DNA of 64,000 bases, from assembly GCA_964428355.1 (NCBI GenBank), contig CAYRYU010000009.1:13043-77042 (forward strand), in the 5' to 3' direction. The stretch comes from an uncultured bacterium. GTDB lineage: Bacteria; Muiribacteriota; Ozemobacteria; Ozemobacterales; Ozemobacteraceae. Under the pieces are notes generated by a model that did not search any database, was not told the DNA's origin, and saw only the letters and a program-made list of their open reading frames with translations. Shown piece by piece: positions 36,558-37,420 of this stretch (the stretch's first letter is position 1; each line of letters opens with the position of its first letter). Both the position numbers and the translations under genes were made by a program.

Positions 36558-36576
36558 CCTTTCCCTTCGGATCACA

Positions 36577-36612
36577 GGGCGCCTCCCACCGGTAGGCGCC
36601 CTTTCCTTTCTC
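36577..36612 (+). terminator. Rho-independent terminator (8-bp stem gggcgcct/aggcgccc plus T-rich tail) after the giant gene
   Basis: Stem halves at 36577–36584 and 36594–36601, followed by ctttcctttctcc. Confidence 0.55.
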
Positions 36613-36913
36613 CGCCAGAACCGGAACCGCCGATGCCTCCTATCCATTCCCACCCTGGGGGGGATGAAAGGGGGGCCTCCCTGCAGAGAGGGCAAGGCCC
36701 AAATCGGGTTACCGGGTTTGCCTAAGAACTGACTGCCGTGAGGGCATGCGGGGGATGGGGCCGCGGACCTCAACCGGCGGGTTGGGAACAATCACAGCCC
36801 CGAGGGCTTCGGCAACCTTCTTCGGGTTGATCTTCTCGAAGGTCTTGCCGGTTTGCTGGATTCGGGGAAGCGTCTTCCCTGAGTTGGTGATAAGCTTTGC
36901 CAAAGTGCCCCCT

Positions 36914-37387
36914 TCAGGAAACCCGGAAATAGCCGTCAATCCGAGGGTTTTTGAAAAAGGCTCTCAGATTCGGGCTAAGTTTTTCGAGGAAGACAACCAG
37001 ACACCATTTTACCGGAGCATCGAGGAAAGCTATCGAGGGAACGAAGATCGCCTGAACCGGCGTCGTATTTCGGAGGAAAGCGGCAGTTGCCCGGGCAACC
37101 TTCTTGTCCGCGAAACACCCGGGGGCTTTGGTCAGGGAAAGCGCCTTGCATACTGCCCGGTCGTGGAGGTCGATGGTATGGGAAAGCTCAACTTCAAACC
37201 GGTAGACCTTCCGTTTATGGACCTTCTTGCCAAGGCCCGGAGACCGGTTGACCTGGAAATGTCGGGCATACTCGGCAAGGGCTACATCCTTTTCCTGGGC
37301 AAGGAAAAGGGTCGGCTCCCCCAAGACGTTCCATCGGTTTGCCTTTTTTTTCGGGATAAACGGAAAGTTGAGAGCATCGGTATTCAT
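36914..37387 (-). CDS. RES-domain protein (toxin of the RES-Xre/MbcT-type NAD+-degrading toxin-antitoxin family); no obvious cognate antitoxin
   Basis: …KKKANRWNVLGEPTLFLAQEKDVALAEYARHF…KVYRFEVELSHTIDLHD…AIFVPSIAF… aligns by eye to the RES motif GGRWN..G…Y.A…A..E…Y….D……VPS seen in MbcT. Lower GC3 than neighbouring genes. Downstream ORF 36709..36939(-) may be a frameshifted continuation or a partner. Confidence 0.45.
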   Translation of the reverse strand: MNTDALNFPFIPKKKANRWNVLGEPTLFLAQEKDVALAEYARHFQVNRSPGLGKKVHKRKVYRFEVELSHTIDLHDRAVCKALSLTKAPGCFADKKVARATAAFLRNTTPVQAIFVPSIAFLDAPVKWCLVVFLEKLSPNLRAFFKNPRIDGYFRVS

Positions 37388-37420
37388 CTCACTGGTGAGT
37401 GATTGTCGATCGGAGGTTCC

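What the first reader, a model, noticed from the sequence alone, without database searches (positions are those of the whole stretch)
36558..37420. Orphan RES-domain (NAD+-targeting) toxin gene wedged divergently 33 bp from the Sel1 gene, with no Xre/DUF2384 antitoxin
The minus-strand 157-aa ORF shows the RES hallmark residues (NRWN…G…LFLA…ALAEY; YRFEVELSHTIDL; IFVPS). It has lower GC3 than its surroundings, suggesting acquisition. The canonical upstream antitoxin is absent, because the space is occupied by the divergently oriented Sel1 signal-peptide gene only 33 bp away. A 76-codon ORF (36709–36939) overlapping its 3' end may be a frameshifted C-terminus or a non-canonical downstream partner. 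The opposite-strand ORF 36746–37402 is an alternative reading of this locus.
Basis: partly seen in the sequence, partly recalled or inferred. Interest (0 to 1): 0.55.

Follow-up and report, generated by a model that had tools for sequence, protein, structure and literature searches.

The report
Truncated remnant of RES toxin cassette
The gene is a real relative of NAD+-degrading RES toxins, but it is a leftover fragment that has lost its front end and its antitoxin gene, so it is most likely a dead remnant of a mobile toxin-antitoxin cassette.

Summary
The minus-strand ORF 36914-37387 (157 aa) is RES-derived: Pfam PF08808 scores 38.4 bits against a cut-off of 23.2, and there are 49 homologues. 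It is not an intact orphan toxin. Of those homologues, 44 are 178-187 aa. Clear DNA homology to them starts abruptly at 37339/37340, which is family codon 41. The conserved N-terminus is therefore missing, including a confidently modelled core beta-strand and the near-invariant R16-H17. The invariant Tyr that aligns with the essential MbcT Y58 is Phe here. In all 5 distinct full-length loci examined, an MbcA-like Xre antitoxin gene ends on the RES start codon. No trace of that gene exists in the 64-kb window. The RES C-terminus is complete, so the 76-codon ORF is not a frameshifted tail. Its true start is TTG 36903, giving 64 aa. It is the truncated 5' part of an uncharacterised ~136-aa family gene that follows RES in the closest relatives (L014/L015). 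It is cut by a stop codon and lacks the family's invariant C-terminal core. The plus-strand 218-aa ORF is an antisense shadow. Together, 36664-37387 is a decaying fragment of a mobile Xre-RES cassette. This is ordinary and of low interest.

The parts
36914..37339 (-). RES-homologous part of the ORF. It corresponds to family codons 41-181 plus the TGA stop. It contains R18 (NRWN), F28 in place of the invariant Tyr, E39 and S118.
   Evidence: Pfam PF08808 38.4 bits. tblastn gives 74-83% aa identity to full-length RES genes. blastn homology runs 37339/37340 to 36914 at 72-83% identity. 12-mer identity steps from 0.17-0.58 to 0.75-0.92 at 37339.
37340..37387 (-). Non-conserved 5' leader of the ORF: the ATG at 37387 plus 15 codons. 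This ATG is not the family's start codon.
   Evidence: DNA identity to five relatives is 0.38-0.42, against a random expectation of 0.25 +/- 0.065 and 0.69-0.83 downstream. The family start lies 24 codons further upstream, and nothing resembling it is present.
36904..36913 (-). 10-nt spacer AGGGGGCACT between the RES stop and the small ORF start. It is Shine-Dalgarno-like.
   Evidence: Read from the sequence. It aligns with the 11-nt spacer AAGGGGCGATC of L015.
36709..36903 (-). 64-codon ORF with a TTG start. It is the truncated 5' portion of an uncharacterised ~136-aa gene family.
   Evidence: A search of 1.84e9 representatives gave 5 true relatives. A profile search gave 43 members, most of them 125-158 aa. 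The window's TTG aligns with the ATG of L015. The first 28 codons differ from L015 by 10 synonymous and 4 non-synonymous changes (read).
36664..36708 (-). Residual homology to the 136-aa family beyond the in-frame stop (..SAGRP.. against SSGGRP). Homology ends here.
   Evidence: tblastn of P0064 and of the L016 136-aa protein runs 36909-36664, through the stop codon. The family's invariant R78, K80, P82, W88 and Q109 have no counterpart.
37388..37420 (.). 33-bp gap between the divergent start codons. It contains the GGAGG of the Sel1 gene. The position where the antitoxin gene would be expected is occupied by unrelated sequence.
   Evidence: Sequence. No sigma-70-like promoter was found in 36400-37800. 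Identity to relatives' upstream sequence is at random level, 0.25-0.33.
37421..38539 (+). Neighbouring gene for a Sel1-repeat protein with a signal-peptide-like N-terminus. It borders the fragment and is not part of the cassette.
   Evidence: Pfam Sel1, 95.5 bits. Called protein P0051 is 372 aa. No orthologue was found anywhere; the best hit is 27-30% identical.
36576..36602 (+). GC-rich hairpin just after the stop of the 1659-aa gene. It is terminator-like and lies beyond the left border of the fragment.
   Evidence: Inverted repeat I11: 12-nt arms, 92% complementary, 3-nt loop.

Best explanation
Window 36664-37387 (minus strand) is a decaying internal fragment of a mobile type II toxin-antitoxin cassette. 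The ancestral order was [Xre/MbcA-like antitoxin]-[181-aa RES NAD+-targeting toxin]-[~136-aa gene].

A deletion or illegitimate recombination with a breakpoint at about 37340 (no later than 37380) removed the antitoxin gene and the first 24-40 codons of the toxin gene. This step is inferred. Losing both together is the viable way for such a cassette to decay, because a toxin crippled at the same moment needs no antitoxin.

The remaining RES reading frame stays open from a fortuitous ATG. It lacks the first beta-strand of the fold, which carries the near-invariant Arg-His. That pair is inferred to be the counterpart of MbcT R27/Y28 in NAD+-binding region 1. The frame also has Phe in place of the invariant Tyr that aligns with MbcT Y58.

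The downstream gene is cut by a stop codon and has lost its conserved C-terminal half.

The fragment is therefore most likely non-toxic and non-functional. Shown: the homology limits, the missing parts, the substitution and the architecture of relatives. Inferred: loss of activity and the order of events.
For: (1) Length and alignment. 44 of 49 homologues are 178-187 aa, against 157 aa here. The window protein lacks family columns 1-24 and diverges in columns 25-39.

(2) Homology boundary. Homology to all relatives starts at 37339/37340. Identity is 0.69-0.83 downstream, 0.38-0.42 in the first 15 codons, and at random level (0.25-0.33) further upstream.

(3) Conserved positions. 7 of the 10 conserved-column violations are the missing W10, G12, A14, R16, H17 (invariant), P19 and M1. 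The other three are D31N, E40A and Y52F, and Y52 is invariant in 47 sequences.

(4) Structure. The AF2 model of a full-length relative has pLDDT 90.9, with residues 8-19 forming a confident strand. Its 12 best PDB matches are all RES toxins: NatT, MbcT, ParT, VPA0770 and P. putida Res. MbcT aligns over 182 columns of its 182-residue chain.

(5) Catalytic residues. The profile alignment puts family R42/Y52/E63 on MbcT R47/Y58/E69. MbcT R27A, R47A and Y58A are non-toxic, and R27E has no NAD+ turnover (PMC6436930).

(6) Antitoxin. In 5 of 5 distinct full-length loci (L002, L005, L006, L008, L015), a conserved 116-141-aa gene ends on the RES start (TGATG/TAATG). Its profile matches MbcA (6fkg_C) at E=5e-4 over nearly full length, and it gives sub-threshold Xre-like-HTH plus Xre_MbcA_ParS_C hits. 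No trace of it exists in the window.

(7) Downstream ORF. It is collinear with L014/L015 through the RES stop and the spacer (83% DNA identity). It is a stop-interrupted 5' piece of a ~136-aa family.

(8) Rate of change. The window branch has a higher non-synonymous rate: dN 0.09-0.107 against 0.036-0.047 on sister branches. Window-specific changes are 9 synonymous to 10 non-synonymous, against 50:26 in relatives.
Against: The 141 homologous RES codons contain no internal stop or frameshift. Pairwise dN/dS against relatives is still low (0.09-0.16). The excess of non-synonymous changes is not significant (Fisher p=0.19). So the truncation may be recent, or the remnant may still be under some constraint.

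R18, E39 and S118, the R-E-S triad, are retained.

The mapping of R16-H17 onto MbcT R27-Y28 rests on spacing, conservation and fold. It does not rest on a residue-level structural alignment.

Tyr to Phe is conservative. Only the Ala mutant of MbcT Y58 was tested in the literature.

No orthologous locus from a relative could be found to show the state before the deletion.

An intact Xre-RES copy elsewhere in the genome, outside the window, cannot be excluded.
Confidence: 0.8

Rival explanations
1. It is a functional orphan RES toxin. The 157-aa protein would still degrade NAD+ or ADP-ribosylate a target. It would be kept in check by tight repression, by an antitoxin encoded elsewhere, or by the downstream small ORF.
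For: The Pfam RES hit is above threshold. R18, E39 and S118 are retained. The reading frame is open over 141 homologous codons and pairwise dN/dS is low. A downstream small ORF is conserved in the closest relatives.
Against: The first 24-40 residues are missing, including a core strand and the near-invariant R16-H17. The invariant Tyr is Phe. All 5 full-length loci carry a translationally coupled upstream antitoxin, which is absent here. The downstream ORF is itself truncated. In L014/L015 it co-exists with the normal Xre antitoxin, so it is not a replacement. The two start codons are only 33 bp apart, and no promoter-like site was found.
Confidence: 0.07
2. It is a domesticated, catalytically dead RES remnant kept for a new role. 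One example would be binding Xre/MbcA-type antitoxins of incoming elements, which would unleash their toxins and act as a form of plasmid exclusion. Another would be a regulatory role.
For: The reading frame is intact despite the loss of the N-terminus. Most conserved positions outside the N-terminus are kept: 53 of 56. The non-synonymous excess is not significant.
Against: The form is found in only one genome: its cluster has a single member. The adjacent co-inherited gene is visibly decaying. The start codon and the first 15 codons are not conserved sequence. The missing strand is part of the fold core in the model, so folding is doubtful. No expression signals were found.
Confidence: 0.08
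3. It is an assembly artefact. The junction at about 37340-37420 would be a chimeric join between a multi-copy TA cassette and the Sel1 locus in a metagenome-assembled genome, and the real gene would be complete.
For: The source is a metagenome assembly. TA cassettes are repeated and mobile. An independent Logan contig ends only 261 bp beyond the RES start, inside the Sel1 gene.
Against: Two assemblies carry the identical junction: the 121-kb NCBI contig and the 37-kb Logan contig, which are 100% identical over 1101 bp. The first 15 codons show marginal residual similarity, which fits in-place decay. The other end of the fragment is also degraded in place, with a stop codon followed by residual homology.
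Confidence: 0.05

Closest known systems
MbcT-MbcA (Rv1989c-Rv1990c) of Mycobacterium tuberculosis, the RES-Xre type II TA whose toxin is an NAD+ phosphorylase (PDB 6FKG; PMC6436930)
   Same: Same domain family (PF08808). The model of the full-length relatives matches MbcT at E=1.6e-7 over the whole chain. The profile aligns R42/Y52/E63 with MbcT R47/Y58/E69. The relatives' upstream partner matches MbcA at E=5e-4. The gene order in relatives, antitoxin first with overlapping stop and start, is the same.
   Different: Sequence identity is about 17%. The window copy has no antitoxin, lacks the N-terminal strand (inferred counterpart of MbcT R27/Y28), and has Phe at the Y58 position. The activity of this subfamily, whether phosphorylase, NADase or ADP-ribosyltransferase, is untested.
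NatT-NatR (P. aeruginosa, 8QNL), ParT-ParS (Sphingobium, 6D0H), Res-Xre (P. putida, 6GW6) and VPA0770-VPA0769 (8GUG)
   Same: All are in the top 12 structural matches of the full-length relative. All are RES toxins with an upstream Xre-type antitoxin (PMC11535050).
   Different: The NCBIfam ParT model scores 15.7 bits against a 110-bit cut-off, so this is not a ParT-subfamily member. No Flap insertion of the NatT type is evident: the family is 181 aa against 250 aa. The window copy is truncated.
181-aa 'RES family NAD+ phosphorylase' proteins of Candidatus Ozemobacteraceae/Riflebacteria MAGs and cyanobacteria (P0002-P0047; loci L002, L005, L006, L008, L014/L015)
   Same: 74-83% aa identity over residues 28-181. 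The closest relatives (L014/L015) have the same downstream neighbour, with continuous 83% DNA identity across the RES stop and spacer.
   Different: Those genes are full length and preceded by the antitoxin. The window copy starts at family codon ~41, has 3 substitutions at >=90%-conserved positions, and has no antitoxin.

Membership tests
RES domain (Pfam PF08808) | Score above the Pfam gathering threshold | tested here: met
   38.4 bits against 23.2, E=1.6e-9, residues 11-133 on profile positions 19-136 of 157
RES domain (Pfam PF08808) | Complete domain and fold, including the N-terminal strand | tested here: not met
   Family residues 1-24 are absent and 25-39 are unrecognisable. In the AF2 model of a full-length relative, residues 8-19 form a strand with pLDDT about 93-95. 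That model matches the solved RES toxins end to end.
RES toxins of Xre-RES type II TA systems (MbcT/ParT/Res/NatT) | R-E-S triad (MbcT R47-E69-S126) | tested here: met
   R18 and E39 align with MbcT R47 and E69 through the profile alignment. S118 sits in the invariant VPS motif; its equivalence to S126 is inferred from position.
RES toxins of Xre-RES type II TA systems (MbcT/ParT/Res/NatT) | NAD+-binding region-1 Arg (MbcT R27, essential for turnover) | tested here: not met
   The only N-terminal near-invariant Arg of the family, R16 followed by invariant H17, lies in the deleted segment. Its equivalence to R27 is inferred from spacing, conservation and the strand in the model. It was not shown residue by residue.
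RES toxins of Xre-RES type II TA systems (MbcT/ParT/Res/NatT) | Region-2 Tyr (MbcT Y58; the Y58A mutant is non-toxic) | tested here: not met
   Family Y52 is invariant in 47 sequences and aligns with MbcT Y58. The window has Phe at position 28.
RES toxins of Xre-RES type II TA systems (MbcT/ParT/Res/NatT) | Cognate Xre/MbcA/ParS antitoxin gene immediately upstream in the same operon | tested here: not met
   It is present and translationally coupled in 5 of 5 full-length loci. It is absent from the whole 64-kb window (best tblastn E=0.84).
RES toxins of Xre-RES type II TA systems (MbcT/ParT/Res/NatT) | Toxicity through NAD+ degradation or ADP-ribosylation, neutralised by the antitoxin | not testable with these tools
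   This needs expression and NAD+ assays.
ParT subfamily (NCBIfam NF049844) | Score above the curated cut-off | tested here: not met
   15.7 bits against 110
Uncharacterised ~136-aa family (P0064, P0069-P0106), for the small downstream ORF | Full length, with the invariant C-terminal core S65, G67-G68-R69-P70, R78, K80, P82, W88 and Q109 | tested here: not met
   The window ORF stops at codon 64. Residual SAGRP lies beyond the stop, and nothing follows 36664.

The most novel reading that the evidence does not exclude
The N-terminally truncated RES protein is still made and has been kept as a catalytically dead antitoxin-binding decoy, or with some other new function. Separately, the ~136-aa family whose 5' stump follows RES, ParE and a 139-aa protein in different elements may mark a new two-gene (139 aa + 136 aa) plasmid-borne TA-like module, or a recombination hot spot where toxin cassettes are exchanged.
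Probability: 0.08. Interest if true: 0.45.

Novelty: new member of a known kind. Interest (0 to 1): 0.15.

Why it matters
It matters mainly for annotation. That reading invites speculation about orphan toxins. The evidence shows a cassette cut inside the toxin gene, which is the expected way for a TA module to die without killing its host. It also shows that a Pfam domain hit above threshold does not prove an intact enzyme.

A minor by-product is an uncharacterised 139-aa/136-aa gene pair on Rep3-type elements. The 5' stump of the 136-aa gene recurs next to unrelated toxin genes.

Tried and rejected
- **Frameshifted C-terminus.** Rejected. The protein aligns to the last residue of the family.
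- **Double frameshift around the A8 run (37343-37350) to explain the divergent codons 9-16.** Rejected. The lengths are equal and the other frames do not restore WCGKSSE.
- **Alternative upstream start.** There is no ATG, GTG or TTG in the open frame upstream, and that sequence has no similarity to the family N-terminus.
- **Synteny in relatives through the Sel1 protein.** Scans of genome contigs and metagenome contigs, plus a 5.8e9-protein search, found only 23-30% identical Sel1 proteins. The state before the deletion could not be seen.
- **Sequence-level mapping to solved RES toxins.** The profiles gave only a weak MbcT hit (E=0.15) covering residues 46-131. Equivalence of the N-terminal Arg therefore remains inferred.
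- **Flanking repeats that would mark an element boundary.** None were convincing.
- **Promoter scan.** No site was found. The organism's promoter consensus is unknown.
- **Family assignment for the small ORF, the 136-aa family and its 139-aa partner.** Pfam, NCBIfam and PADLOC gave nothing. A PDB sequence search gave nothing. The AF2 model was too poor (pLDDT 64.9) to justify a fold search.
- **Relaxed-selection tests.** There is a trend only: dN is 2-2.7 times that of sister branches, and Fisher p=0.19.

Full report
**What is at the coordinates.** The minus strand carries a 157-codon ORF at 36914-37387. It scores 38.4 bits on Pfam RES (PF08808), against a cut-off of 23.2, with E=1.6e-9. A search of 5.8 billion proteins returned 49 homologues with E-values down to 7e-78. 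Where named, they are called 'RES family NAD+ phosphorylase', from Candidatus Ozemobacteraceae/Riflebacteria MAGs, cyanobacteria and Chloroflexi. So the RES identification is real and far beyond chance.

The Sel1 gene starts at ATG 37421. It has a GGAGG 6 nt upstream and a signal-peptide-like N-terminus, and it is called as the 372-aa protein P0051. It is divergent, with 33 bp between the two start codons.

GC3 of the RES ORF is 0.62. The two flanking giant genes have 0.74 and 0.69, but the Sel1 gene is also 0.62. The compositional dip therefore covers both small genes.

**The gene is truncated at its 5' end.** Of the 49 homologues, 44 are 178-187 aa. In alignments the window protein reaches the very last residue of the family (...DGYFRVS). 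It lacks the first 24 columns (consensus MSISSFIKPWSGxAVRHxPxPxKGQ). tblastn with a full-length relative matches only its residues 28-181, at window 37378-36917, and finds nothing upstream.

At the DNA level every relative shows the same sharp boundary. Identity is 0.69-0.83 from 37339 downwards. It is 0.38-0.42 over the ORF's first 15 codons, barely above the random 0.25 +/- 0.065. It is at random level (0.25-0.33) in the 72 nt where family codons 1-24 would lie. The ATG at 37387 is therefore not the family's start codon. Effectively the first ~40 residues are gone or unrecognisable. The frame upstream has no alternative start.

**What the missing part is.** Among 63 columns that are at least 90% conserved in 47 homologues, the window protein violates ten. 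Seven fall in the deleted segment: M1, W10, G12, A14, R16, invariant H17 and P19. Three are substitutions: D31N, E40A and Y52F, and Y52 is invariant. None of its close relatives has more than five violations.

An AlphaFold2 model of a full-length relative is confident (pLDDT 90.9, pTM 0.87). It places residues 8-19 in a beta-strand with pLDDT of about 93-95. The 12 best PDB matches of that model are all RES toxins from solved TA complexes: NatT 8QNL, MbcT 6FKG, ParT 6D0H, VPA0770 8GUG and P. putida Res 6GW6/9R35. MbcT aligns over 182 columns of its 182-residue chain. The N-terminal strand therefore belongs to the shared fold.

A profile alignment puts family R42, Y52 and E63 (window R18, F28, E39) on MbcT R47, Y58 and E69. 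Freire et al. (PMC6436930) showed that MbcT R27A, R47A and Y58A are non-toxic and that R27E has no detectable NAD+ turnover. They also showed that S126 is dispensable and that E69A keeps some toxicity. The window protein thus keeps the R-E-S triad. It has Phe at the Y58 position. It has also lost the only conserved N-terminal Arg, R16-H17, which lies 26 residues before R42. In MbcT, R27-Y28 lies 20 residues before R47. I infer, but could not show residue by residue, that R16-H17 is the region-1 counterpart of R27-Y28.

**Why there is no antitoxin.** In every full-length locus examined, a conserved 116-141-aa gene ends on the RES start codon (TGATG or TAATG). These loci are L002-L004, L005, L006/L007, L008 and L014/L015, five distinct sequences. 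A profile of this partner matches MbcA (6FKG chain C) at E=5e-4 across profile positions 40-137 of 139. It matches HigA2-type HTH antitoxins at E=2e-4. Individual members give sub-threshold Pfam hits to Xre-like-HTH and Xre_MbcA_ParS_C in the expected order.

So this subfamily is a canonical Xre-RES module. NatR/NatT and MbcA/MbcT have the same gene order. The window has no trace of the antitoxin: best tblastn E is 0.84, and an all-ORF tblastn from 17 cassette loci hits only 36664-37421 plus one unrelated 44-aa match near 26900. The antitoxin and the toxin's 5' end are missing together, on the same side of one breakpoint. The simplest reading is a single deletion or recombination event. Such an event would inactivate the toxin at the same moment as it removed the antitoxin.

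**The downstream '76-codon ORF'.** It is not a frameshifted C-terminus, because the RES protein is complete at that end. An exhaustive phmmer search of 1.84 billion representatives found five true relatives. A profile search found 43. The typical family member is 125-158 aa, most often 136 aa. Its invariant residues all lie in the C-terminal half: S65, G67-G68-R69-P70, R78, K80, P82, W88 and Q109.

The closest small relative, P0067, lies 11 nt downstream of a full-length 181-aa RES gene that has its 139-aa antitoxin upstream (L014/L015). Window and L015 DNA are 83% identical without interruption from 37339 to 36820. That stretch runs through the RES stop, an SD-like spacer and the first 28 codons of the small ORF. 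The L015 ATG aligns with the window's TTG at 36903. In those 28 codons I count 10 synonymous and 4 non-synonymous differences, so the sequence was once coding.

The real ORF is therefore 36709-36903 (64 aa). This agrees with the Logan gene call and does not overlap RES. Homology to the 136-aa family continues through the window's stop codon to 36664 (..SAGRP against SSGGRP) and then ends. The conserved R.KIP..W core is absent. The neighbour is thus a truncated remnant too.

It is also not RES-specific. Full-length copies sit 9 nt after an uncharacterised 139-aa gene, next to Rep3 replication genes in L018/L019 (L011, L016-L020). Another truncated copy (65 aa) follows a ParE pair in a Rep3/RPA context (L012/L013). 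Other full-length RES loci have unrelated downstream genes: HTH_17, Fic, a resolvase. It has no Pfam, NCBIfam or PADLOC match.

**The plus-strand ORF.** ORF 36746-37402 (218 aa) has no family hit. It 'matches' relatives only where it lies antisense to RES, and at lower identity than the RES frame: 36-56% against 74-83%. It is a shadow ORF.

**State of decay.** The 141 homologous RES codons contain no stop or frameshift. Pairwise dN/dS is 0.09-0.16, against 0.04-0.10 among relatives; dS is near saturation. Distance-based branch estimates give the window lineage a dN of 0.09-0.107, against 0.036-0.047 for sister lineages. Window-specific changes are 9 synonymous to 10 non-synonymous, against 50:26 pooled for three relatives. 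This trend toward relaxation is not significant (Fisher p=0.19). The truncation is therefore either fairly recent, or some constraint persists. I cannot separate these two possibilities.

**Context and caveats.**
- No sigma-70-like promoter was found in 36400-37800. The consensus may not apply to this organism.
- No flanking repeats mark an element border.
- No tRNA genes were found in the window.
- The Sel1 protein has no orthologue in any collection searched. No related genome could be used to see the locus before the event.
- The junction is present in two assemblies: the 121-kb NCBI contig and a 37-kb Logan contig of SRR12133404, which are 100% identical over 1101 bp. They may derive from the same reads.

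**Verdict.** The observation of a RES-domain ORF without an antitoxin, 33 bp from a divergent Sel1 gene, is correct. The interpretation as an orphan toxin is not. Window 36664-37387 is an internal fragment of a mobile [Xre]-[RES]-[136-aa gene] cassette, cut at both ends. The toxin gene lacks its conserved N-terminus and carries a substitution at an invariant position that is functionally critical in MbcT. It is a decayed member of a well-known kind of system and is of low interest. The main value of the result is as an annotation caution. The one loose end worth noting is the uncharacterised 139/136-aa gene pair and the recurrence of the 136-aa gene's 5' stump beside different toxin genes.

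Noticed in passing
L016:3572-4411, L018:3572-4411, L011, L017, L019, L020: An uncharacterised two-gene module: a 139-aa gene, a 9-nt gap, then a 136-aa gene. Neither has a Pfam or PADLOC match. In L018/L019 it sits near Rep3 replication genes. The 136-aa protein has an invariant SSGGRP..R.KIP..W..Q core followed by two predicted helices, which is ribbon-helix-helix-like (my inference only). 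It may be a TA-like pair.
   Followed up: partly
window 36664-36903; L015:1029-1169; L012:5001-5198: The 5' part of the 136-aa family gene, truncated at different points (64, 46 and 65 aa), lies directly after three different upstream genes: RES in the window and L014/L015, ParE in L012/L013, and the 139-aa gene in the canonical form. This suggests a recurrent recombination point just upstream of this gene's start.
   Followed up: partly
window 37421-38539: The Sel1-repeat secreted protein has no orthologue in 5.8 billion proteins; the best hit is 27-30% identical. It shares the lower GC3 (0.62) of the RES remnant, against 0.69-0.74 in the flanking giant genes. It may have been acquired as well.
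   Followed up: partly
window 31578-36557 and 39089-47194: Two giant ORFs flank the locus. One is up to 1659 aa and was called as 1517 aa, with Vps62/DUF7910 hits on the Logan contig. The other is 2701 aa with many Big_5-type repeats. Both are probably large surface or secreted proteins.
   Followed up: no
window 36576-36602: A GC-rich hairpin (12-nt arms, 3-nt loop) lies 19 nt after the stop of the 1659-aa gene and is followed by a T-rich stretch. It is a likely terminator, about 60 nt from the end of the cassette fragment.
   Followed up: no
window 37343-37350: An A8 run (T8 on the plus strand) lies inside the non-conserved first 15 codons of the RES ORF. I checked it as a possible frameshift site. 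No other frame restores the family sequence.
   Followed up: yes
L006:1-10546: The intact Xre-RES pair of this relative sits in a very TA-dense island with BrnA, three HigB-type genes, HicB, RelE, HTH_3 and Fic, followed by LytTR regulators. LytTR genes also flank the ParE/65-aa locus in L012/L013.
   Followed up: no
window 38540-39088: A gap of about 550 bp between the Sel1 gene and the 2701-aa gene has no convincing ORF. It was not examined further.
   Followed up: no
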